A stretch of 32,000 bases of DNA from Desulfocapsa sulfexigens DSM 10523. GTDB taxonomy: Bacteria > Desulfobacterota > Desulfobulbia > Desulfobulbales > Desulfocapsaceae. The notes under the pieces were generated by a model. It was not told the DNA's origin. It worked only from the letters and a program-made list of their open reading frames with translations, and made no database searches. The stretch is from the NCBI RefSeq assembly GCF_000341395.1, contig NC_020304.1, positions 2,490,001 through 2,522,000 on the forward strand, given 5' to 3'. Positions within the stretch are counted from its first letter, which is position 1. Every line of letters starts with the position of its first letter. The translations under genes and the position numbers were made by a program. This document shows positions 2,845 through 11,842 of this stretch, piece after piece.

Positions 2845-3228
2845 ATAATCCCATGCTTGATCAAATTCTTATCAACAACTCCCTTGTCCCAGGCAAAACT
2901 GCGACATTTGTGAAGAATAATACTATTGTGTATCTCATCCATACTGTAGGTGTATACTCACGCTATTTAGATGTCAACTTTTAGTGAGGGAGGATATGCT
3001 TGCTGGTTTGTGTGAATCGCCACGAGTATTCTAGACACTCATCTCCTTTATAGCAGCCCATAAATTATAAGGCTAAAATAAGAGAAGAACAGTAGATCTA
3101 TTAATCTGGGACATTGACAGGATATTGAATCTTCGGAATGGCTGTACGTTATAGCTCAGGGGATTTCGCCACTTTACCCCGATATTTGCCCAAAGATCGG
3201 ACTGGCAAAATTTTCCCGCAGCGCCTTG

Positions 3229-3525
3229 TTATGCTATTAGTTCATCTACAGGTAGTATTTGCTTAGTGTGACGGATAGTAAGAATGGCAATACTCATCTC
3301 TTCTATTCGGTAAATTATTCGATAATTACCAAAAATAATTCCTCTTATTTCTTTTCTGTTTATTTCTGGAACAGTACGGCCCATTTTGGGCATTGAATTT
3401 AAGATTAGAACTTTTTCAAAAATATCATCAATCCATTTTGATGCAGCCGTAGGATTGTCTAATGAAATATATTCTGCAATTTCCGAGGCTCTATCAATAG
3501 CTAATGGAGACCAGGTTATTTTCAT
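3229..3525 (-). CDS. parE: type II toxin, ParE/RelE family
   Basis: 98 aa. The pattern MKITWSPLAIDRASEIAEYI...PKMGRTVPEINRKEIRGIIFGNYRIIYRIEE..IAILTIRH is typical of ParE/RelE toxins. Its ATG overlaps the antitoxin stop (ATGA, 3522-3525). Confidence 0.85.
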   Translation of the reverse strand: MKITWSPLAIDRASEIAEYISLDNPTAASKWIDDIFEKVLILNSMPKMGRTVPEINRKEIRGIIFGNYRIIYRIEEMSIAILTIRHTKQILPVDELIA

Positions 3526-3803
3526 TTGGATATTCTCTTTAAGATCATATCCTTTGCGTTTTTGTGTGCTACTCCTTCTCCATTTTCAATTTGGCTAATT
3601 GCTTTTTGCACATCACTTAGCAATTCGATCTTTTCCTGCATAGCTTCATATTCGCCTACGTCCAACAATACAGCAGCACCTTTGCCATGCTGAGTAATAA
3701 TTAGTGGTCTTTTAGTATCGTGGACTTGCTTAAGAAAAGAAGCTATTCCTGCCCTGAATTCTGACATAGAACGTATATCTTGATCTACTCTCAATCTTTG
3801 CAT
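3522..3803 (-). CDS. phd: type II antitoxin, Phd/YefM family
   Basis: 93 aa. It has the SMSEFRAGIASFLKQVHDTKRPLIITQHGKGAAVLLDVGEYEAMQE motif and is upstream of parE, translationally coupled to it. Confidence 0.85.
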   Translation of the reverse strand: MQRLRVDQDIRSMSEFRAGIASFLKQVHDTKRPLIITQHGKGAAVLLDVGEYEAMQEKIELLSDVQKAISQIENGEGVAHKNAKDMILKRISK

Positions 3804-3831
3804 TTGGGCATCTCCTTTGGTGTGGAATGTG

Positions 3832-3847
3832 GTACATTATAACGTAC
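3832..3847. promoter_or_regulatory. Imperfect 16-bp palindrome GTACATTATAACGTAC, candidate Phd/ParE operator
   Basis: It lies 29-44 nt upstream of the phd start. TA operators are usually promoter-overlapping palindromes. Confidence 0.35.
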
Positions 3848-3989
3848 TTCAGGAGGTTCGTGCAATGGTTATTGTTTCGAGGCGAATAACGAGTCTGCAG
3901 AAAAACCCAATTTCCAGAAAGGTTCTCCTGCCTGACTTCAGAATTCTGATTTAGACTAAATTGTTTTTATCCTAATTGGTTATATCACA

Positions 3990-5720
3990 CCTGCTAAATT
4001 TGTCATGAAAATCATAACAGACGCATGTATTTGATCTTCTAACCCATGCCTTTCCCTTTGTTTGTCTTATGTTGCTCCTGGCATTCCATAGTTATGCACC
4101 TTTTTCAGGTTATGGACGACACAAAACAACAGCCATTGGTTGTTGACCTTCTTTTTCCCTCGAAAGCTGAAACGATCTAATCCCATGACATGTCTGATAT
4201 GTGCAAAAGGTGGCTCTGCTGTTGCTATTCTCTTGGCGTAGATGGCCTTGCCTATAACAGAATCAATCTTGCTTTTCATCTTATCAGCAAAAGATGCACC
4301 TGTGTTTGTAGGTACCGTACCAAGCGCACATGTCACTTGTCGTACTTCTGTTCTCTCTGGATACCGGAGGCATTGGGTTCTCAGTTTACATGGGCGGCAG
4401 TTTTTTTTCTGGCCTGTAAAAGCAGCACGCTTCACTCCTCTTAATAATGGAAAACCGCTTTTGTACATCCGCTTACCCGCTGGGCATACGCAATAACGAA
4501 ACTCTGGGTCAAATGTGAAATCTTTTGGAAGAAACTGCTTGCGCGAGTGATCTATTTTCCTGCGTTCCTCTGTTGTTCTTTCTTTGTATCTACCAGCATT
4601 GTCAAACCGGGGGTCTCTTTTGCGGAAATAGCGGTCCGCGATATAGGCATCTATTTGCTCTTCTGCCAACATCTCCATATTCTTATTGGTGTGAAAACCA
4701 CTGTCTGCGGTCAGTTTTGTGGTCTTGAAAACATCTTCGTCACTCTCAATACTCTCAAAGTTTTTACGCGTTATTTCTATCATCGGAGATAGTAAATTGT
4801 ATTCGGTGGCCTCTCCGTAGGCTGCAGCTCCAACGATCACCTGGTGCCTGTTATCCACCATCGCAACGCCATTATATCCCTGGATTATACCATTGGAGGA
4901 TTTTATCTTGGCACTGTCGTTATCTGTTATGTTGGACTTGGTGGGAGTCTTATTATGGCCTGGCTTGTCATCATTATCATCCATCCATTCTTTTATTTTT
5001 TTCACCTGTTTCTTCAGGGTTGAAACATACTGTTTCTCGGTTTCCTTTACTCTATTCTCAGGTTTTGTTAGATCTGCTTCACGGTGACGTTTGACGATAC
5101 GTTCAATGGCATTTTCCAACTTCAGGCATTTTCTCTTAAAATCTTTCTTCGTTCCGCTCCACTCTTTTGAGGCATTTGAAGGGAGCTTACATCCATCAAC
5201 GGCAAACATCTCTCGTCCGATGAGGCCCATTGCATCGCAGACGAGGAGGACCTCCCGGAAGAGTGTGATCACCTCTTTATCCATACTGGAAATAAAGTTA
5301 GAAATGGTTGTGAAGTGAGGTCTGCTATGGGCTGATAGAGCCATGAAAACCACATTTTCCTCACAGCACTTGGCTATCTCTCTACTTGAGGTTATCCCTC
5401 TGGAATAGGCAAACAAAACAACTTTTAACAAGATACGGGGATCATAAGCGGGGGCACCATTTTCGTCATTCCGATAACGACTATCCAAATGAGACAAGTC
5501 CATTTCATGATCTATAAGATAGTTGATGGAGTACTCAAAAGTACCTTTCTGAAGCTGCTTGTTGAAAAAGACCGGGAGGAAATGACCTTGTGCAGGGTTA
5601 TAGGGCTTGTATTTTGCCACAATGAACCTCTTTTTAGATGTTCAGTTGTCTGTTTGGTTAACTTCGGCAAAATATAGCATATTTTGTCAATAATATCAAG
5701 GTGGTTATGGTTATTCTACA
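3990..5720 (-). mobile_element. IS1182-family insertion sequence; the ends are NOT resolved and the coordinates are approximate
   Basis: The transposase fills 4067-5620. I could not find convincing terminal inverted repeats by eye in 3950-4066 versus 5621-5730. Confidence 0.3.
4067..5620 (-). CDS. IS1182-family (IS5-like) DDE transposase
   Basis: 517 aa. The N-terminus is MAKYKPYNPAQGHFLPVFF...PAYDPRILLKVVLFAYSRGITSSREIAKCCEENVVFMALS. The DDE region includes FAVDGCKLPSNAS and LTADSGFHT, and a Cys-rich segment reads CVCPAGKRM...CRPCKLRTQC. It has a GTG start with an AAGAGG SD 7 nt upstream. Confidence 0.85.
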   Translation of the reverse strand: MAKYKPYNPAQGHFLPVFFNKQLQKGTFEYSINYLIDHEMDLSHLDSRYRNDENGAPAYDPRILLKVVLFAYSRGITSSREIAKCCEENVVFMALSAHSRPHFTTISNFISSMDKEVITLFREVLLVCDAMGLIGREMFAVDGCKLPSNASKEWSGTKKDFKRKCLKLENAIERIVKRHREADLTKPENRVKETEKQYVSTLKKQVKKIKEWMDDNDDKPGHNKTPTKSNITDNDSAKIKSSNGIIQGYNGVAMVDNRHQVIVGAAAYGEATEYNLLSPMIEITRKNFESIESDEDVFKTTKLTADSGFHTNKNMEMLAEEQIDAYIADRYFRKRDPRFDNAGRYKERTTEERRKIDHSRKQFLPKDFTFDPEFRYCVCPAGKRMYKSGFPLLRGVKRAAFTGQKKNCRPCKLRTQCLRYPERTEVRQVTCALGTVPTNTGASFADKMKSKIDSVIGKAIYAKRIATAEPPFAHIRHVMGLDRFSFRGKKKVNNQWLLFCVVHNLKKVHNYGMPGAT

Positions 5721-5727
5721 GGCTCAA

Positions 5728-5798
5728 CGTTTGAGTTAACCAGTGCGCCACCCAAAGATGCAGATGAGGCAACCAACCTCTTCGCATCTGGTTAAACG
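5728..5798 (+). repeat. About 71-nt imperfect palindrome (attC-like or terminator-like stem-loop) immediately 5' of the intron insertion site
   Basis: The outer arms CGTTT[GAG]TTAACCAGTGCG (5728-5747) and CGCATCTGGTTAAACG (5783-5798) are complementary with extrahelical bases. There is an inner hairpin GATGCAGATGAGG/CCTCTTCGCATC (5757-5788). The right end GTTAAAC (5791-5797) fits the GTTRRRY consensus. Confidence 0.4.
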
Positions 5799-6344
5799 CC
5801 TGGTGTACGCCCGACATGGGCGTGAACTAATGGGGTTAGAGTCCCCTGTAAGTGTTCCATGTAACGTTGTGAAACGTAACATAAATTACTAGCCAATGGC
5901 AAGGGCGTTACCGTGAGGTAGGGTCTGAAGGAAGCCGGATGGCAAAGATATGGGGTGACGAACAGAAATATCATATAAGGCCGAGTCTCTGGGTCAGTCA
6001 GCACAACATGATTACGCCCGGGAACAGGAGATACGGTAAATGATGCGCTCGCATATCGGAAGTTCACGCTCTTATTCGGGGAGATCTGTATTCCATGCAA
6101 TATGAAATTATTTCCAGTGAAATTACCGGTGGGGTTCCGGTTTCCAAATATCCCGGCATAGACAGGGAATGTCCTGCCCGTCTGTGAGATACGAAGAAAG
6201 AAGACAGACAGGAAATGATGAAATACGGCACCACTTTGAGCAATCGGAATGGTGAGAATGCAGAAGTCAGCAGAAGCCATAGTAGTCCAAAGCCGGGGGT
6301 AATGCCGCGGACACGGTGAAGGGCTGAACATTAAGGAGAGAAAT

Positions 6345-7694
6345 ATGTTGCCAAGACATCTTACACGTACTGTGAACCTGAACGGGGGAGTAGTGTATAA
6401 GCGTATCGCGGATGAGCAGTTCTCAAACGATCAACTACTGGAACGTATAGTTTCGACAGAGAATGTCGGTAAGGCCTGGAAACAGGTGCGCAGTAATAAA
6501 GGTGCTCCCGGAATCGACGAAATAACAGTCGGGGATTTCCCGTTCACTTTTCGTGAATGCTGGCCTGAAATACGCTCAACCATACTGGAAGGGAATTACA
6601 CCCCTTCTCCTGTTCAGAGAGTTGAAATCCCCAAACCGGATGGCAGTACTCGTCCTCTTGGGATTCCAACTGTGCTGGATAGAGTTATCCAGCAGGCCAT
6701 CGCTCAGGTTATGAGTCCTATTTTCGAGCCTCATTTTTCAGAATCGAGTTGTGGGTTCAGACCGGGCAGATCAGCCCATGATGGAGTGAAGCAGATAAAG
6801 CAGTACATCAGACAGGGCTACAAAGTCGCAGTTGATATGGATTTGTCGAAATTCTTCGACACAGTCAACCACGATGTTCTGATGAACCGGGTATCACGTC
6901 GGATAGAAGATAAACGTGTACTCAAGCTTATCGGCAAATACCTTCGGGCTGGCGTAATGGTTAATGGCCGTCGTCTTGCAACTCCGCTTGGAGTACCGCA
7001 GGGCGGTCCTCTTTCGCCACTTCTTGCAAATATTCTTCTTGACGATCTGGATAAGGAACTGGAGAAACGTGGTCACCACTTCGTTCGTTATGCCGATGAC
7101 TTCATCATTTTAGTGAAAAGTCTTTCAGCAGCAGAACGGGTGATGGCCAGTGTCAGCAGATTCCTGAAAAGAGAGCTACGGCTAATCGTCAACGAGAAGA
7201 AAAGCAGTTTTGGTAAAGTGGAGGAATGCAGTTTTCTCGGGTTTGTCTTTGTGCGAGGCAAAATAAGATGGAGCGACAAAGCCTTTTGTGAGTTCAAAAG
7301 ACGTATTCGTCTTTTTACCGGAAGAAGCTGGGGCGTCTCCATGGAATACCGCCTACACAAACTTGCAGAGTATGTACGGGGCTGGATAAACTATTACGGC
7401 ATTTCGGAGTATTATCGCCCGATCCCGATAGTAGACGAATGGCTCCGTCGCAGGATACGAATGTGTTTCTGGAAACAATGGAGATATACACGAACCAAAG
7501 TGTCCAATCTTCTCAAGCTGGGAACCTTCAAAAGACAGGCAATTATGACAGCATTAAGTCGTAAAGGCCCATGGCATCTCGCCAGAACCCTGGCTGCACA
7601 AACGGGCATGACCAACAAATGGCTGAAAGAACTTGGGTTGATATCTGTCAAAGACCAGTGGGTGAAGATTCACTATCCGGCTCAGGCCCGATGA
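6345..7694 (+). CDS. group II intron-encoded reverse transcriptase/maturase (no endonuclease domain evident)
   Basis: 449 aa. RT motifs are RVEIPKPDGSTRPLGIPTVLDRVIQQA, GFRPGRSAHD, AVDMDLSKFFDTVNH, GVPQGGPLSPLLANILL and RYADDFIILV. A maturase X-like region reads GWINYYGISEYY. There is a strong SD (AAGGAGAG) before the ATG. Confidence 0.92.
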   Translation: MLPRHLTRTVNLNGGVVYKRIADEQFSNDQLLERIVSTENVGKAWKQVRSNKGAPGIDEITVGDFPFTFRECWPEIRSTILEGNYTPSPVQRVEIPKPDGSTRPLGIPTVLDRVIQQAIAQVMSPIFEPHFSESSCGFRPGRSAHDGVKQIKQYIRQGYKVAVDMDLSKFFDTVNHDVLMNRVSRRIEDKRVLKLIGKYLRAGVMVNGRRLATPLGVPQGGPLSPLLANILLDDLDKELEKRGHHFVRYADDFIILVKSLSAAERVMASVSRFLKRELRLIVNEKKSSFGKVEECSFLGFVFVRGKIRWSDKAFCEFKRRIRLFTGRSWGVSMEYRLHKLAEYVRGWINYYGISEYYRPIPIVDEWLRRRIRMCFWKQWRYTRTKVSNLLKLGTFKRQAIMTALSRKGPWHLARTLAAQTGMTNKWLKELGLISVKDQWVKIHYPAQAR

Positions 7695-7704
7695 CCTTAA
7701 TGAA

Positions 7705-7772
7705 CCGCCCTATGCGGAGCCGCTTGTGGGGTGGTGTGGGGAGGGCGAGGGAAAACCTCGCCCTTACCCGAT
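7705..7772 (+). ncRNA. Intron domain V (7705-7734), J5/6 (7735-7737), domain VI (7738-7769) and 3' tail
   Basis: DV is CCGCCCTATGCG-GAGC-CGCTTGTGGGGTGG. It has a 9-bp lower helix with CGC at positions 2-4 (central G.U wobble), a 2-nt 3'-strand bulge, a 3-bp upper helix and a tetraloop. DVI is GGGGAGGGCGAGG-GAAAA-CCTCGCCCT(TA)CCC, with unpaired A7766 as the putative branch point. The intron ends ...CCCGAT at 7772. Confidence 0.6.
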
Positions 7773-7808
7773 TCGGCGATTTTCACCATCTGGCTTGTCG
7801 CTAAACCT

Positions 7809-7846
7809 AAAAAAGGCCAGGCACTCTCATGAGTATCCGGCCTTTT
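7809..7846 (-). terminator. Rho-independent terminator after the 146-aa gene (bidirectional A/T tails)
   Basis: On the minus strand it reads AAAAGGCCGG-loop-CCTGGCCTTTTTT, about 30 nt after the stop at 7878. Confidence 0.7.
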
Positions 7847-7877
7847 AAAGGTATGAAAATATGATAAATATTTTTGA

Positions 7878-8318
7878 TTATCCAGGGGAAGGTGCATTGC
7901 TCTTAGGTTCTTTTATTAAGTCAACTAGAAATGGAATTTCGCTATCTAACTTCCATCGTGTATTTCTTTTTGTTTCAACCGTTATCAAGTATTCACCTTC
8001 ATGCTCAGCCACAAGGTTAGCTATTTCAACGTTTATGTTTGCTGTCCTGCCTACAGGACCACCAATTACAATTGGTTGTTCCAGTAGTATTTCTTTTTTT
8101 TCTGTTCCGGGAACAATTATCCCTATACGGAAACGAATATTTCTTTTATTTTTAGAATTATAGAACCATGTTGAGGTGAGTATTAATGGTGGTATTTTAG
8201 ATGGCAGACCTGTAAGGCCAAATGAAGCTCCACTTAACACCTCGATAAAACTTGGTAATTTAGTTCTTTCATCTGCTATTACTTTGCTACAGATGAGACT
8301 CGTCACATGTCGGATCAT
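7878..8318 (-). CDS. hypothetical 146-aa protein, third gene of the hicAB unit; possibly DUF6941-like (weak recollection)
   Basis: The ORF is MIRHVTSLICSKVIADERTKLPSFIEVL...RTANINVEIANLVAEHEGEYLITVETK...IPFLVDLI. No catalytic motif was recognised. It starts 28 nt after the hicB stop with an AAAGGA SD. Confidence 0.6.
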   Translation of the reverse strand: MIRHVTSLICSKVIADERTKLPSFIEVLSGASFGLTGLPSKIPPLILTSTWFYNSKNKRNIRFRIGIIVPGTEKKEILLEQPIVIGGPVGRTANINVEIANLVAEHEGEYLITVETKRNTRWKLDSEIPFLVDLIKEPKSNAPSPG

Positions 8319-8346
8319 ATCATCATCATCCTTTTAATACTCTTAA

Positions 8347-8868
8347 TTATTGTAAGCTGAAGTTATTTGAGCTGCCGGACAAAAATGCACCGACTGCACT
8401 TTCTTTAGTACCTTCAATGTCGGTAGTGATATTCAAATATTGAGAATGCTCAGAGGCAAGGATGGCAACATTTTTAGCCATACCCGCTGTTTGACCAATG
8501 ATCGCTTTAAGTTCATCAATAACGTTTTTGTACACTTCAACTTTGCTGGAGCGTTCTTGGAGCATTGACACAATTTGTGAATTAAGAGAAATTCCTTCTT
8601 GTTCAGCTATTTTTGACAACCGTTCATGGAGTGAAACAGGTAGTCGTAGTCGAAATTGTCCACTGAACTTTTTCGCTGTTTGTGGCAACGGAATTTCTTC
8701 ACCATCTTCTTTTAATATTTCTATTGCATCAGCTAAAACCAAATTTAATTGTGCAGTTGCTTTTTCTTGTGTTTCGCCAAACCCCGACAAAAATGGAAAT
8801 TCCATTGAAGTCGCCACAAAGCACTCATCCTCTTCGCTCCACAAGGTACTTATAGAATATTTGTGCAT
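8347..8868 (-). CDS. hicB: HicB-family antitoxin (HicB N-domain + ribbon-helix-helix) with about 65-aa C-terminal extension
   Basis: 173 aa. The N-domain reads YSISTLWSEEDECFVATSMEFPFLSGFGETQEKATAQL...EDGEEIPLP. The RHH-like segment reads FRLRLPVSLHERLSKIAEQEGISLNSQIVSMLQ. An extra tail follows: SSKVEVYKNVIDELKAIIGQ...SNNFSLQ. Confidence 0.75.
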   Translation of the reverse strand: MHKYSISTLWSEEDECFVATSMEFPFLSGFGETQEKATAQLNLVLADAIEILKEDGEEIPLPQTAKKFSGQFRLRLPVSLHERLSKIAEQEGISLNSQIVSMLQERSSKVEVYKNVIDELKAIIGQTAGMAKNVAILASEHSQYLNITTDIEGTKESAVGAFLSGSSNNFSLQ

Positions 8869-8881
8869 TATGATCCCTTTA

Positions 8882-9160
8882 TTATAATTTTATCTGAAAT
8901 TCTTCTATGAAACTAAGTAACTGTTTTACTTGGTAGGGTTTAGCTTTGCTTTTATCTCGTTCATCATGTTGAAAGTTCATCAAATTATTGGGTGCTTTGA
9001 TGGTTGAGTGTTTATACATGAATCCATGACCAGAACTTTTTCTTCTCTCAAAGCCAGCTTTCCCTGCTAACTTCAAAAGATTTTTAAAGCTAACATTCTT
9101 TGGGTTGGCAATCGCATCTCCTAATAGCTTTTCTATACGACTCATCAGGTCATCTCTCAT
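8882..9160 (-). CDS. hicA: HicA-like toxin (mRNA interferase family), divergent
   Basis: 92 aa. Motifs are FKNLLKLAGKAGFERRKSSGHGFMYKH...KAKPYQVKQLLSFIEE. It lies 13 nt upstream of hicB in the canonical hicA-hicB order. Confidence 0.6.
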   Translation of the reverse strand: MRDDLMSRIEKLLGDAIANPKNVSFKNLLKLAGKAGFERRKSSGHGFMYKHSTIKAPNNLMNFQHDERDKSKAKPYQVKQLLSFIEEFQIKL

Positions 9161-9280
9161 TATGGTACCACAGGGGGGACCATTTTGTAAACTATCTGTA
9201 TTTATTTATCAAGGGTTAATTTTATGCAAGGCTTACCTATCTCCGCCAGCCGAACGCCAGAGATAACCGGCTTGCCAACC

Positions 9281-9370
9281 AGTTGGCTACCAAGTTCAAA
9301 CGGCTAAAATTATTGAAGCTAACTCAAGAGAACGCGCGTGCTCGCAAGTCGGGTTGATTGATTTGTTATG
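9281..9370 (-). repeat. Candidate attC-like site B (poorly symmetric)
   Basis: On the minus strand it reads ACATAAC(9370-9364)...GTTATCT(9287-9281). The arm CCGACTTGC can pair with GCAAGCCGG, but only with a 12-nt offset. It shares TTGTTATGT and a GCGCG-rich arm with site A. Confidence 0.3.
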
Positions 9371-9420
9371 TTATTTCATGCACATATGATATTTACAGCA
9401 GTGTTTATCTGTGCGAAACT

Positions 9421-10281
9421 TTAATTTATTGCCCATTTTTGAATGTTGAATTTATTACTTTCACCGCTATATGCCCAATTTGCACCTGTTGCAACAGCGA
9501 AATCATTACCGAAGGTTGTTAATTTAACTGACCAAAAGTAAGATGAATCTAGTGTTTGAGGACAACGCTCATCTTTTCTTTTTTCTTTTTTATATTTTTC
9601 AAATTCACTCCAAAGTTTACCCATAACTCCATAAGAATATTTTGAACCGCAGTCTTCGTGAGGGAATAATGATTCCTTTTTAGTTTTGACAAGACCGAGT
9701 CTTTCTAGGTTGCTGATGTATAACCACATTCTGGAATTATTTTTTATGCCAGCCTTAACTTGTAAAGGGAAACTGTCTTTAGAAAACTGAAAACCACTTT
9801 CTACTTTCATATAAAGGCTAGCAAATATATGTGCTTCTATAATATTGTATGGCGACGAAGCAATAACAGAGAAAATTCGGCATTCGTCGGATACCAAATT
9901 TTTTAGAACTTCTGCAAAAGCTGGGTGGGTAGTATCAATTTTTTCTTGATCCATATTCCCTGCAAGTAAGTTTACAAACATAGTTCTTGGCAGCGGGTCT
10001 TCTGCATTTATGGTTGACTGTAGTCCTTGGATTACCCTGATTGCCATCTCTGGTTCTGGGCTAACGATAGTTGAAGGGTCTTTTCTCTCATTTTTGAACT
10101 TTTGCTCAATTGCGGATTCAACCCAGTCAAATGTTTTATCTACTGTTGATATAAGGCCGGAGACAGGACGTAAGGTTACTTTGATTGCTTCAGTCAAAGT
10201 GTTGCCAAATTCTTTTGCGGCACCGTGCACTACATCATCATAAATTTTGGGGATCAAAGACTTAATAACTTTTTCTTCCAT
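9421..10281 (-). CDS. Abi-alpha / DUF4393-like protein (abortive-infection-associated family)
   Basis: 286 aa from ATG 10281, which has an AAGGATGA SD. The track's TTG start at 10308 is less likely. The N-terminus GAAKEFGNTLTEAIKVTLRPV and the motif AEDPLPRTMFVNLLAGNMDQE resemble the Abi_alpha signature (..LQ.MWA.LLA..). Confidence 0.6.
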   Translation of the reverse strand: MEEKVIKSLIPKIYDDVVHGAAKEFGNTLTEAIKVTLRPVSGLISTVDKTFDWVESAIEQKFKNERKDPSTIVSPEPEMAIRVIQGLQSTINAEDPLPRTMFVNLLAGNMDQEKIDTTHPAFAEVLKNLVSDECRIFSVIASSPYNIIEAHIFASLYMKVESGFQFSKDSFPLQVKAGIKNNSRMWLYISNLERLGLVKTKKESLFPHEDCGSKYSYGVMGKLWSEFEKYKKEKRKDERCPQTLDSSYFWSVKLTTFGNDFAVATGANWAYSGESNKFNIQKWAIN

Positions 10282-10297
10282 TATTTCATCCTTACAA

Positions 10298-10421
10298 ACA
10301 TAACGCAAAGCTAAGACGCGCGCCTAGCCGAGGTTAGAGTAGGTTCGAGTTGTATTGAGATGGCCGAAGCCGATTTAGCAAAGCGCAAGTTTGCGCGTCG
10401 TGCTTGAGCGAATTGTTATGT
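10298..10421 (-). repeat. attC-like recombination site A (124 bp imperfect palindrome)
   Basis: It has exact inverted 7-mers ACATAAC (10298-10304) and GTTATGT (10415-10421). The adjacent arms GCAAAGCTAAGACGCGCGCC and GCGCGTCGTGCTTGAGCGAATT pair with extrahelical bases. It starts 5 nt after the stop of the upstream (minus-strand) ORF and ends 16 nt before the next ATG, which is the classic cassette layout. Confidence 0.55.
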
Positions 10422-10426
10422 ATTTT

Positions 10427-10936
10427 CTATTTTGGCGTAATTGTACCAGTTGCTTTTTGGTCTGGACAGCTCTCAACTTCATACGATGCATTTTCAATAT
10501 AATAAGTGATTTTACAGCCGGTTACTTCATGTTCGCCTAAATAAGCTATGGGGTGCTCTGTTAATATGATTTTATCATCCTCTTTGTCGTACTCCGCTTT
10601 TCCTGATGATGTTGAATGGCCGTTATTAATTTGAATTTTAACATCATTTGTGGCGATGAGTTTTTTTACCTTCTCAGCCATTTTTTCGTCGCCTGAATTA
10701 GAAATATTTTCGTGCAAAATAACCAGCTTTTGGCACTCAATTTTCATATTGGTTGATGTGGCAACTACGTCTTTTGTAATGATGATGATGTTTTCTTTAT
10801 TTTTGAACTCCCAATAGTCACCTATGACATGCAACTTAGATGCACCAATATAACCCTCTGCGGCCTTAATTTGCGGGACATAACTGGCAATTGCTAAGAG
10901 GATTGTGAAAAGGGCGATTGGTTTCTTGGTGTTCAT
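10427..10936 (-). CDS. secreted protein with LptA/OstA-N-like beta-jellyroll pattern
   Basis: 169 aa. The signal peptide is MNTKKPIALFTILLAIASYVPQIKAAEG. The LptA-like repeats read ITKDVVATSTNMKIECQKLVIL...LIATNDVKIQINNGHSTSSGKAEYDKEDDKIILTEHPIAYLGEHEVTGCKITYYIEN. Confidence 0.5.
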   Translation of the reverse strand: MNTKKPIALFTILLAIASYVPQIKAAEGYIGASKLHVIGDYWEFKNKENIIIITKDVVATSTNMKIECQKLVILHENISNSGDEKMAEKVKKLIATNDVKIQINNGHSTSSGKAEYDKEDDKIILTEHPIAYLGEHEVTGCKITYYIENASYEVESCPDQKATGTITPK

Positions 10937-10949
10937 TTGGTGTTCATAT

Positions 10950-10998
10950 ACATAACAGTGTTAATACATGGACAATGTCCATCATATTACCTTATATC
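10950..10998 (-). repeat. Short attC-like or operator palindrome upstream of the LptA-like gene
   Basis: It reads ACATAAC-AGTG-TTAATAC-ATGGACA-A-TGTCCAT-CATATTA-CC-TTATAT. It begins 13 nt upstream of ATG 10936. It is shorter than typical attC sites. Confidence 0.3.
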
Positions 10999-11658
10999 TG
11001 GCTACATTTTCCTCTTATCTTGATATTAAAACATTCTGCATGGAAAATAGTGTCCACTTATTACCTTGAAATCTCTATTTTCCAGCTATTGCCATATTAG
11101 GGCCAAAAAGTGGAAAAACAGACGGTTTGCGTCATTTTTCCCACAAACATAACCGGACTGTTTTTTTATAGATATTATGGGAGATGTCCAGTGGGCAAGA
11201 ATGGCCTAGGCAGAAATACCTTAAGTTAATATAATTTCCGCTCCTCTTCCTTCAAATAAACCACCATCCATTAAAACAGACGATCCATACTTATTCAATG
11301 AATAAATGTGCTATTTGTTTGATAATTCAAATGAATTTTTTGTAAAGATGTGCGGTGGCAAGGGTAACTGTCGTGCAATATAGGCAGGTTTAGATGTTTT
11401 TTATACATCTCGATTTCAAAAGAGTGACTGAAACTCAACCGACTGGAAACATAAAAATTTAGGTAAACAGGAGGAGTGTGATTGTTTAGAGTTATGTGGA
11501 ATTCCAGAAATTTCCCTTGGCCATTCACGCCGGAATCGTGGTCTGTCCCTTAATCCCTGCTTAATCCCCCACTGCAGGTGACGTCAATACATGGGCTTTG
11601 TTTATTGCCATTAGAAATAAAAAACGTGGGACAGGAGTGGGATAGGGGGGGGCAAATG

Positions 11659-11694
11659 AAAAAAGCACATAGGGCAAAAACGCTCTATGTGCTT
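11659..11694 (-). terminator. Rho-independent terminator downstream of tRNA-Gln
   Basis: On the minus strand it reads AAGCACATAG-loop-CTATGTGCTT followed by TTTTT, about 10 nt after the tRNA CCA end. Confidence 0.65.
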
Positions 11695-11704
11695 GAATTT
11701 TCAA

Positions 11705-11778
11705 TGGCTGGGGGACAGGGATTCGAACCCCGATAAGCGGAGTCAGAGTCCGCTGTCTTGCCGTTAGACCATCCCCCA
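11705..11778 (-). tRNA. tRNA-Gln (anticodon CUG), CCA encoded
   Basis: I folded the reverse complement TGGGGGATGGTCTAACGGCAAGACAGCGGACTCTGACTCCGCTTATCGGGGTTCGAATCCCTGTCCCCCAGCCA by hand. It gives a 7-bp acceptor, a 4-bp D stem, the anticodon stem GCGGA/TCCGC with loop CTCTGAC, and a T arm with GGTTCGAAT. Confidence 0.9.
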
Positions 11779-11842
11779 GAATGGGTGCTGTTGAGGGAGA
11801 TTATTTAGACAGTTTTGGTAGTTCTGTCAAGGAAAAAGACCC

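What the first reader, a model, noticed from the sequence alone, without database searches (positions are those of the whole stretch)
7878..9160. hicA / extended hicB / unknown 146-aa gene: candidate undescribed three-component toxin-antitoxin or defence module
Seen: three minus-strand ORFs are packed with 13-nt (8869-8881) and 28-nt (8319-8346) gaps. There is no terminator or attC-like site between them, and a single strong terminator (7809-7846) follows the third gene, so they look co-transcribed. Gene 1 is HicA-like but divergent. Gene 2 has a HicB N-domain plus RHH, then runs about 65 aa past the point where canonical HicB ends. Gene 3 (146 aa) has no motif I can link to a characterised function. 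Established: canonical hicAB loci are bicistronic. Inference: the third gene could be an extra effector, sensor or chaperone. The HicB tail could be its docking site. The location in a TA/Abi-rich cassette region fits an anti-phage role.
Basis: partly seen in the sequence, partly recalled or inferred. Interest (0 to 1): 0.72.

Follow-up and report, generated by a model that had tools for sequence, protein, structure and literature searches.

The report
Conserved three-gene HicA–long HicB–DUF6941 module
A known two-gene toxin–antitoxin pair (HicA/HicB) here carries a third gene for a small immunoglobulin-like protein, and the same three-gene unit recurs in distant bacteria always with an unusually long-tailed antitoxin, pointing to an undescribed three-part version of this system.

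Summary
Three minus-strand ORFs (8882-9160, 8347-8868, 7878-8318) are separated by 13 and 28 nt and followed by one strong terminator (7809-7846). The window is Desulfocapsa sulfexigens DSM 10523.

- **Gene 1** is a divergent HicA.
- **Gene 2** is a HicB with an RHH domain plus a 67-aa tail.
- **Gene 3** is a divergent member of Pfam DUF6941. It is predicted with high confidence (pLDDT 94.9) to be an Ig-like all-beta sandwich, not SecB.

The decisive result is comparative. In all 22 distinct DUF6941-like genes (23-63% identical) whose upstream DNA could be read, a HicB of 161-184 aa sits directly upstream. The gaps are -13 to +54 nt, and seven pairs overlap. A HicA gene precedes HicB wherever there is room. 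These loci come from at least four phyla and have unrelated flanks. Seven related hicAB loci without DUF6941 have HicB of 107-155 aa, and none has a tail of more than about 37 aa.

So this is a conserved, mobile three-gene module, and the tail and the third gene co-occur. The closest known analogue is the toxin-antitoxin-chaperone (TAC) system, but the SecB criterion fails. Mechanism and any anti-phage role remain untested. No paper in the searchable library mentions DUF6941 or this arrangement.

The parts
8882..9160 (-). hicA-like toxin gene. The ORF as listed is 92 aa; the probable true start is the ATG at 9145, giving 87 aa.
   Evidence: Pfam HicA_toxin E = 0.074 and phrog_8887 'toxin' 6e-4. 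It is 28-43% identical to seven aligned HicA proteins, six from syntenic modules; 7 of the 8 sequences hit PF07927, best 5.7e-10. The SGH...KH histidines are retained. Homologues start at the position of Met6.
8671..8868 (-). hicB, N-terminal HicB (HicA-binding) domain, about aa 1-66.
   Evidence: PF05534 HicB 2e-10, 40.8 bits against a cut-off of 21. A profile of the long HicBs hits Burkholderia HicB structures 6g1c/6g1n over positions 15-59.
8551..8664 (-). hicB, ribbon-helix-helix DNA-binding domain, about aa 69-106.
   Evidence: PF03869 Arc 2.3e-06, 27.8 bits against a cut-off of 20.4. It aligns to Arc, Mnt and AmrZ structures. The motif SGQxRxRxPxSLHxxL...SLN is invariant in the family.
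8350..8550 (-). hicB C-terminal tail, aa 107-173 (67 aa). The proximal part (107-150) is possibly helical; the distal part is variable. The stop codon is at 8347-8349.
   Evidence: No family hit covers it. A tail of 55-75 aa is present in 18 DUF6941-linked HicBs measured, and all 21 complete ones are 161-184 aa long. It is missing or at most about 37 aa in 7 related HicBs without DUF6941. Its sequence is not conserved across the family. Among close relatives dN/dS is 0.09-0.10 for aa 107-150 and at least 0.33 for aa 151-173. The AF2 model is low confidence here (pLDDT below 40).
7878..8318 (-). Third gene, a divergent DUF6941 protein (UWK_02234, 146 aa), Ig-like beta sandwich.
   Evidence: 100% match to UWK_02234. 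118 representative clusters match at E <= 1e-3, full length. 53 of 65 members hit PF22091. The AF2 model has pLDDT 94.9 and nine strands. Structure and profile matches are only to generic Ig/FnIII/V-set sandwiches. dN/dS is 0.19-0.37.
7809..7846 (-). Intrinsic terminator closing the three-gene unit.
   Evidence: Hairpin plus U6: -28 kcal/mol for the 86-nt stretch, z = -6.05.
9162..9191 (-). Candidate sigma-70 promoter for the operon (TTTACA, 18-nt spacer, TG-extended TACCAT). This is a consensus match only.
   Evidence: The number of such matches in the region equals the chance expectation, so this is weak.

Best explanation
The locus is one copy of a self-contained, horizontally mobile three-gene operon: hicA, a long-tailed hicB, and a DUF6941 gene.

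**Shown by comparison:**
- The three genes travel together, tightly spaced or overlapping, across at least four phyla and in unrelated contexts.
- The 55-75-aa HicB tail is found in every DUF6941-linked HicB examined, and no comparable tail is found in the related HicBs sampled without DUF6941.

**Inferred from established HicAB biology:**
- HicA is the RNase toxin.
- The HicB N-domain neutralises it.
- The HicB RHH domain auto-represses the operon.

**Inferred mechanism for the new parts:**
- The DUF6941 protein is a cytoplasmic Ig-like binding module. It binds the fast-evolving HicB tail and thereby controls the stability or activity of the antitoxin.
- This is the logic of toxin-antitoxin-chaperone (TAC) systems. 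There, a variable C-terminal 'chaperone addiction' extension makes the antitoxin dependent on a third protein encoded just downstream.
- If the third protein is lost or diverted, for example by a phage or stress-derived ligand, HicA would be released.

I put about 0.9 on 'real conserved tripartite module with tail and DUF6941 functionally paired'. I put about 0.4 on the specific TAC-like stabiliser/sensor mechanism. The figure given is a compromise between the two.
For: - **Obligate synteny.** 22 of 22 non-redundant DUF6941-like genes with readable upstream DNA have HicB directly upstream, and HicA upstream of that wherever the contig allows. Gaps are -13 to +54 nt and 7 pairs overlap.
- **Variable flanks.** No family recurs in more than 2 of 61 neighbouring proteins.
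- **Tail and third gene co-occur.** 21 of 21 complete linked HicBs are 161-184 aa. The 7 related HicBs without DUF6941 are 107-155 aa.
- **The tail is coding and constrained in close relatives but variable across the family**, like ChAD elements (PMC5105189; bioRxiv 10.1101/2024.02.24.581848).
- **DUF6941 looks like a binder, not an enzyme.** It is a confidently predicted Ig-like sandwich. It carries an Ig-type core Trp and a D/E-x-G-x-Y tyrosine-corner-like motif, and it gives weak V-set profile hits.
- **The gene order is that of TAC.** Toxin, antitoxin, third gene is the TAC order, and HicAB is one of the TA families known to form TACs (PMC5105189).
Against: - No direct evidence of a tail-DUF6941 contact.
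- The HicB model is low confidence: pLDDT 48.9, from only 4 sequences.
- DUF6941 is not SecB-like in sequence or fold, so the TAC analogy is functional only.
- The proximal tail aligns with the Mnt region that follows the RHH. It may simply be an oligomerisation helix.
- Thermus pVV8 HicB has a tail of about 30-37 aa without DUF6941.
- A distant structural relative in Anoxybacillus phage A403 stands alone, without hicAB.
- The sample of loci is modest and was not drawn at random.
Confidence: 0.5

Rival explanations
1. Toxin-antitoxin-toxin reading. DUF6941 is a second toxin or effector. The 'RHH plus C-terminal tail' half of HicB works like a ParD/RelB/CopG-type antitoxin, with the tail wrapping the protein encoded downstream. 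One bifunctional antitoxin would then hold two different toxins.
For: - The order 'RHH antitoxin then toxin' is the canonical type II layout (established knowledge of parDE and relBE).
- The tail follows the RHH directly and co-occurs strictly with the downstream gene.
- Weak CopG_antitoxin and FitA-RHH matches cover the RHH.
- DUF6941 has conserved polar residues: D16, T19, N20, S23, R64 and R94.
- Several members carry K/R-rich C-termini that could bind nucleic acid.
Against: - The fold is a plain Ig-like sandwich, with no match to any known toxin or enzyme.
- Most invariant positions are structural (Cys, Trp, Pro, Gly).
- No bicistronic 'RHH-tail + DUF6941' module without HicA and the HicB N-domain was seen in 22 loci.
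- A phage relative stands alone without an obvious antitoxin.
Confidence: 0.2
2. DUF6941 acts on the toxin side or on the target, not on the tail. It could be a specificity or targeting factor for the HicA RNase, or a trigger sensor that binds HicA, RNA or the ribosome. The HicB tail would then be an independent Mnt/MatP-like oligomerisation helix that tunes operator binding.
For: - The long-HicB profile aligns with Mnt through residue 68, beyond the RHH.
- There is a weak MatP_C match over aa 82-121.
- A helix is predicted for aa 95-145, though at low confidence.
- Basic C-terminal tails occur in a subset of DUF6941 proteins.
Against: - It does not explain why the long tail and DUF6941 always occur together.
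- The distal tail is non-helical and variable.
- The frequent hicB/DUF6941 start-stop overlaps suggest coupled synthesis of these two proteins.
Confidence: 0.15
3. Passenger gene. ORF146 merely hitch-hikes behind hicAB and has no role in the TA system.
For: No functional data exist. The window protein itself has only sub-threshold family hits.
Against: - Linkage holds in 22 of 22 loci at 23-63% identity, across phyla and with unrelated flanks.
- The gene is under purifying selection, dN/dS 0.19-0.37.
- It co-occurs with a specific HicB feature, the tail.
Confidence: 0.05

Closest known systems
Toxin-antitoxin-chaperone (TAC) systems, e.g. M. tuberculosis HigB1-HigA1-SecB(TA) and Methylomonas methanica HicA-HicB-SecB(TA) (PMC5105189; bioRxiv 10.1101/2024.02.24.581848)
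   Same: - The operon order is toxin, antitoxin, third gene.
- The TA pair comes from a 'toxin-first' family, and HicAB is one of the three families known in TACs.
- The antitoxin carries a C-terminal extension after its DNA-binding domain. [quoted passage not shown]
- The third protein is about 135-160 aa.
   Different: - The third protein is not SecB. There is no PF02556 hit, the predicted fold is an all-beta Ig-like sandwich rather than SecB's alpha+beta fold, and no SecB appears among the structure or profile matches.
- Chaperone dependence, a degron function for the tail, and ClpXP involvement are all untested.
Class 4 hicAB operons (HicB with a C-terminal RHH) in Gerdes 2024, mBio (PMC10865869)
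   Same: The order is hicA then hicB, the HicA is a dsRBD-type small toxin, HicB has an N-domain plus RHH, and the spacing is tight.
   Different: - That survey lists 14 HicA contexts. All are bicistronic or fused, and none has a conserved third gene or DUF6941.
- Here HicB is 161-184 aa, against 107-155 aa in the related two-gene loci sampled here.
- Here the operon is tricistronic.
Other tripartite type II systems (paaR-paaA-parE, HipBST, omega-epsilon-zeta, PasABC)
   Same: A third small protein is encoded in the TA operon.
   Different: In those systems the third component is a transcriptional regulator, a split toxin or antitoxin domain, or a toxin enhancer of a known fold. None is an Ig-like DUF6941 protein paired with an antitoxin tail. 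This comparison rests on my own knowledge and on abstracts listed.
Pfam DUF6941 (PF22091) / PHROG 5881
   Same: 53 of 65 family members hit PF22091 and 10 of 65 hit phrog_5881. Length and fold are the same as a 134-aa protein of Anoxybacillus phage A403, with TM 0.69/0.75.
   Different: The window protein itself scores below the Pfam cut-off (15.9 against 27 bits). The family has no assigned function, and no paper in the searched library mentions it. The phage relative is not next to hicAB.

Membership tests
HicB antitoxin (PF05534) with RHH | HicB domain above the Pfam gathering score | tested here: met
   40.8 bits against a cut-off of 21, E = 2e-10. The profile also hits solved HicB 6g1c/6g1n.
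HicB antitoxin (PF05534) with RHH | C-terminal ribbon-helix-helix DNA-binding domain | tested here: met
   Arc PF03869 at 27.8 bits against a cut-off of 20.4. It aligns to Arc, Mnt and AmrZ.
HicA toxin (PF07927) | HicA_toxin domain above the gathering score | tested here: inconclusive
   The window protein scores 13.6 bits against 27 (E = 0.074). A profile of the family finds no solved HicA at E <= 0.01. However, 7 of 8 aligned homologues hit PF07927 (best 5.7e-10) and precomputed Pfam marks HicA_toxin in L009, L012 and L014.
HicA toxin (PF07927) | Conserved catalytic-region histidine, and a position immediately upstream of hicB | tested here: met
   SGH...KH aligns with GSH...xH of the homologues. 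The gap to hicB is 13 nt.
HicA toxin (PF07927) | RNase activity and toxicity neutralised by HicB | not testable with these tools
   Needs expression assays.
DUF6941 (PF22091) | Match above the gathering score | tested here: inconclusive
   The window protein scores 15.9 bits against 27 (E = 0.017). Its full-length family (118 clusters) hits PF22091 in 53 of 65 members, best 6.1e-11. It is a divergent member by transitivity.
TAC (toxin-antitoxin-chaperone) system | Type II TA pair of the HigBA, MqsRA or HicAB family with a third gene in the same operon, in the order T-A-C | tested here: met
   The definition comes from PMC5105189.
TAC (toxin-antitoxin-chaperone) system | Antitoxin carries a variable C-terminal extension that is absent from two-gene relatives | tested here: met
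   The tail is 55-75 aa in 18 linked HicBs measured, is not conserved in sequence, and is absent or shorter in 7 controls.
TAC (toxin-antitoxin-chaperone) system | Third protein is a SecB homologue (SecB fold, PF02556) | tested here: not met
   No SecB hit at E <= 1 for the protein, nor at E <= 0.01 for 65 family members. The model is a nine-strand all-beta sandwich. No SecB appears among the 50 Foldseek PDB matches listed or in the PDB profile search at E <= 1.
TAC (toxin-antitoxin-chaperone) system | Antitoxin function and stability depend on the third protein through the extension | not testable with these tools
   Needs genetics and biochemistry.
Known anti-phage defence systems (PADLOC-DB) | Any of the three proteins matches a defence-system model | tested here: not met
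   No hit at E <= 1 for any of the three.

The most novel reading that the evidence does not exclude
DUF6941 proteins are a second, independently evolved class of antitoxin 'addiction' partner. In this reading an intracellular Ig-like domain replaces SecB in a TAC-type circuit. It holds the HicB tail, and it releases HicA when its binding surface is occupied by a phage or stress-derived protein. That would make the third gene the sensor of an abortive-infection switch.
Probability: 0.3. Interest if true: 0.8.

Novelty: new variant of a known kind. Interest (0 to 1): 0.66.

Why it matters
Tripartite TA systems show how toxin release is gated. In TACs the chaperone has turned out to be the phage sensor. 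A second, structurally unrelated third component attached to HicAB has several consequences:

- It would show that 'antitoxin tail plus dedicated partner' is a recurrent design rather than a SecB peculiarity.
- It would give DUF6941 its first functional context.
- It would add a fifteenth HicA context to the 14 catalogued in 2024.
- It offers a compact, easily testable system of three small genes, about 1.3 kb, for studying how an Ig-like domain could control an antitoxin.

The family is rare, with about 118 clusters at 50% identity among 1.84 billion representatives, and it is mostly environmental. The impact is therefore conceptual rather than broad.

Tried and rejected
- **Word-indexed protein searches.** These returned almost nothing for ORF146 (2 hits), for HicB (4 hits) and for the family alignment (6 hits). 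The exhaustive HMMER search was what opened the family up.
- **The search for related loci.** It failed with the DUF6941 alignments and the HicB alignment because no stretch was conserved enough. I replaced it with a hand-made degenerate DNA pattern for D-x-x-T-N-L-V-S-Y-I-[ND]. Its matches were then filtered with family HMMs. That left 3 true loci of 16 in genomes, 10 of 17 in metagenomes and 0 in viral contigs.
- **Plasmid and phage databases.** They hold no DUF6941-like gene at tblastn sensitivity. A search at E <= 10 gave only noise.
- **Tail charge against DUF6941 charge.** No correlation (Spearman -0.15, p = 0.56).
- **Cys-His-Asp catalytic site.** I considered H4, C10 and D16. H4 and C10 lie six residues apart on one strand and H4 is not well conserved, so I rejected the idea.
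- **attC or integron-cassette reading of the hairpin.** I considered it and did not pursue it. The hairpin followed by a U-run behaves as an ordinary terminator.
Full report
**What is in the window**

The window is from the chromosome of Desulfocapsa sulfexigens DSM 10523; ORF146 is 100% identical to UWK_02234. Three minus-strand ORFs lie at 8882-9160, 8347-8868 and 7878-8318, with gaps of 13 and 28 nt that contain Shine-Dalgarno-like motifs. A hairpin at 7809-7846 followed by U6 folds at -28 kcal/mol for the 86-nt stretch (z = -6.05, no shuffle as good), about 30 nt after the last stop codon. Promoter-like matches in the block are no more frequent than chance.

**What the three proteins are**

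- **Gene 2** is a HicB. PF05534 scores 40.8 bits against a cut-off of 21, and an Arc-type RHH scores 27.8 against 20.4. The RHH ends near residue 106 and 67 more residues follow.
- **Gene 1** matches HicA_toxin only weakly (E = 0.074) and a phage 'toxin' PHROG at 6e-4. It aligns at 28-43% identity with seven HicA proteins, six from the syntenic modules described below. Of the 8 aligned sequences, 7 hit PF07927, best 5.7e-10. The histidines of the GSH...H region are retained. The homologues indicate that the true start is Met6 at 9145.
- **Gene 3** has a sub-threshold DUF6941 hit (E = 0.017) and nothing in NCBIfam or PADLOC.

**The third gene belongs to a real family**

- An exhaustive HMMER search of 1.84 billion representatives found 118 clusters at E <= 1e-3. 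Nearly all are 130-177 aa and match over their full length.
- 53 of 65 of these hit PF22091 (DUF6941).
- With that alignment, AlphaFold2 gives a nine-strand all-beta sandwich with mean pLDDT 94.9.
- Foldseek against the PDB finds only generic Ig/FnIII-type sandwiches, with TM about 0.4-0.55.
- A profile search of PDB sequences gives weak V-set immunoglobulin hits, E about 1e-3.
- The conserved positions are mostly structural: C10, P39, W51, P70, G108 (invariant) and W122. There is also a polar group: D16, T19, N20, S23, R64 and R94.
- There is no similarity to SecB at any level.
- ORF146 is under purifying selection, with dN/dS 0.19-0.37 against close relatives.

**The decisive evidence is the neighbourhood**

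I examined DUF6941-like genes from three sources:

1. Exact-protein look-ups of family members at 22-39% identity.
2. A degenerate DNA pattern for the family's N-terminal motif, scanned over GTDB species genomes.
3. The same pattern scanned over JGI metagenomes.

After removing copies that are at least 90% identical, 22 distinct loci had readable upstream DNA. All 22 have a HicB gene immediately upstream (gaps -13 to +54 nt; 7 overlap), and a HicA gene precedes it wherever the contig extends far enough. Three further contigs (L001, L007, L037) end too close to the gene to be judged. L001 still shows the last codons of a HicB-like tail.

Named sources include Desulfocapsa, a Brocadiia MAG, a Spirochaetaceae MAG and two Gemmatimonadaceae MAGs. 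The flanks have nothing in common: no family occurs in more than 2 of 61 neighbouring proteins. Some neighbours are defence genes (type I R-M, MADS, a SIR2/ThsA-like protein, PDC-S21). Others are housekeeping genes (SmpB, TIM, RpoA, ribosomal proteins). The three genes therefore move as a unit.

**The tail goes with the third gene**

- All 21 complete HicBs linked to DUF6941 are 161-184 aa, and the tail measures 55-75 aa in the 18 examined.
- Seven related hicAB loci that lack any DUF6941-like ORF were compared: six plasmid loci at 33-50% identity, searched within 1.5 kb at E <= 1, and the short metagenome contig L004.
- Their HicBs are 107-155 aa. Five end 0-8 aa after the RHH. The longest, Thermus pVV8, has about 30-37 extra residues.
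- A Fisher test on this non-random sample gives p about 8e-7. It should be read as descriptive only.
- The tail is not alignable across the family. Among close relatives its proximal part (aa 107-150) is as constrained as the core, with dN/dS 0.09-0.10 against 0.09-0.11. The last 23 residues are freer, at 0.33 or above.
- The only structure model I could obtain for HicB used four sequences and is unreliable (pLDDT 48.9, tail below 40). It suggests a helix running on from the RHH to about residue 145.
- The long-HicB profile aligns with Mnt beyond its RHH, so part of the tail could be an oligomerisation helix.

**Comparison with what is known**

- *TAC systems.* TACs are operons of toxin, antitoxin and a SecB-like chaperone. 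HicAB is one of the three TA families involved. [quoted passage not shown] In E. coli HigBAC the extension is a disordered degron held by the chaperone, and a phage protein competes for the chaperone (bioRxiv 10.1101/2024.02.24.581848). The present module has the same gene order and the same antitoxin architecture, but it fails the defining SecB criterion. It works like a TAC at best. It is not one.
- *The HicA survey.* Gerdes' 2024 survey of HicA contexts lists 14 classes. All are bicistronic or fused, and none has a third gene (PMC10865869). The hicAB part here corresponds to his Class 4.
- *Literature search.* No paper in the searchable library contains 'DUF6941', and searches for tripartite or tricistronic HicAB found nothing else.

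**Mechanism**

Two things are shown: a conserved tricistronic unit, and strict co-occurrence of the long tail and DUF6941. The rest is inferred.

- HicA is taken to be the RNase toxin.
- The HicB N-domain is taken to be its inhibitor, and the RHH to be the autorepressor.
- DUF6941 is taken to be an Ig-like binder of the tail that gates antitoxin stability or activity.

Three rivals remain.

1. **DUF6941 is a second toxin held by a ParD-like 'RHH + tail' half of HicB.** This is plausible from the gene order. It is disfavoured by the binder-like fold and by the lack of stand-alone RHH-tail/DUF6941 pairs.
2. **DUF6941 acts on HicA, RNA or the ribosome, and the tail is only an oligomerisation helix.** This does not explain the co-occurrence.
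3. **DUF6941 is a passenger gene.** This is contradicted by linkage in 22 of 22 loci.

An anti-phage role is possible but unsupported beyond context. In the window, Abi_alpha lies directly upstream. Phd/ParE, an IS and a group II intron are nearby, in a low-GC island next to tRNA-Gln. PADLOC has no model for any of the three proteins.

**Verdict**

This is a conserved, apparently undescribed three-component variant of HicAB, whose third part is an Ig-like DUF6941 protein paired with an extended antitoxin tail. It is a new variant of a known kind, namely tripartite or TAC-like type II TA systems. It is of solid interest to TA and defence specialists and is cheap to test.

Noticed in passing
window 5744-7785 (+), approximate; Rfam hits at 5907-6070, 6229-6324 and 7703-7772; RT ORF at 6345-7694: A complete-looking group II intron with its reverse-transcriptase/maturase ORF lies on the opposite strand. 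Its 3' end is only about 30 nt from the terminator of the three-gene operon. The 5' boundary is my reading of a GTGCG at about 5744.
   Followed up: partly
window 2900-11800: This is a small low-GC island (37-39% at 8-11 kb, against 45-49% in the housekeeping genes at 12-21 kb) beside tRNA-Gln (11705-11778, -). It holds Phd/ParE (3229-3803), an IS-type DDE transposase (4067-5620), the intron, the hicA-hicB-DUF6941 operon, Abi_alpha (9421-10308) and a secreted LptA-like protein (10427-10936).
   Followed up: partly
window 9265-9296: An imperfect 15-nt palindrome (AACCGGCTTGCCAAC / GTTGGCTACCAAGTT, 2-nt spacer) lies about 110-150 nt upstream of hicA. It could be an operator for the RHH, or it could belong to the Abi_alpha 3' end.
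   Followed up: no
L058 (Anoxybacillus phage A403, MG969427.1) 35864-36268: The best structural match of the ORF146 model in the viral library (TM 0.69/0.75) is a 134-aa hypothetical protein of this temperate phage. It is encoded between a secreted nuclease gene and the integrase, and no hicA or hicB is found anywhere in the phage. Also, 10 of 65 family members hit phrog_5881 (unknown function). Distant DUF6941-like proteins therefore exist outside the hicAB context.
   Followed up: partly
proteins P0037, P0118, P0122 and L043 (DUF6941-like C-termini): A subset of DUF6941-like proteins end in Lys/Arg-rich tails, for example KKKTSKKKTSKKKTRNR. This hints at contact with nucleic acid or an acidic partner. 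The window protein lacks such a tail.
   Followed up: no
L002 663-1025 and 120-638: In one close relative the DUF6941 gene is cut to 120 aa, losing the last strand. The last ~25 residues of the HicB tail are also unrelated to those of the window copy. This may be joint decay of the two parts.
   Followed up: no
L009 1822-6723; L010 6076-8862: Some copies of the module sit beside defence-type genes. In L009 these are a PD-(D/E)XK/Cas4-like protein, an HTH protein, a radical SAM protein and a DUF1016 nuclease. In L010 it is a 929-aa SIR2_2 protein. Other copies sit among ribosomal, SmpB or TIM genes.
   Followed up: partly
window 5792-6331 (-): This 179-aa ORF has no family hit and overlaps domains I-IV of the group II intron, so it is probably spurious.
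   Followed up: partly
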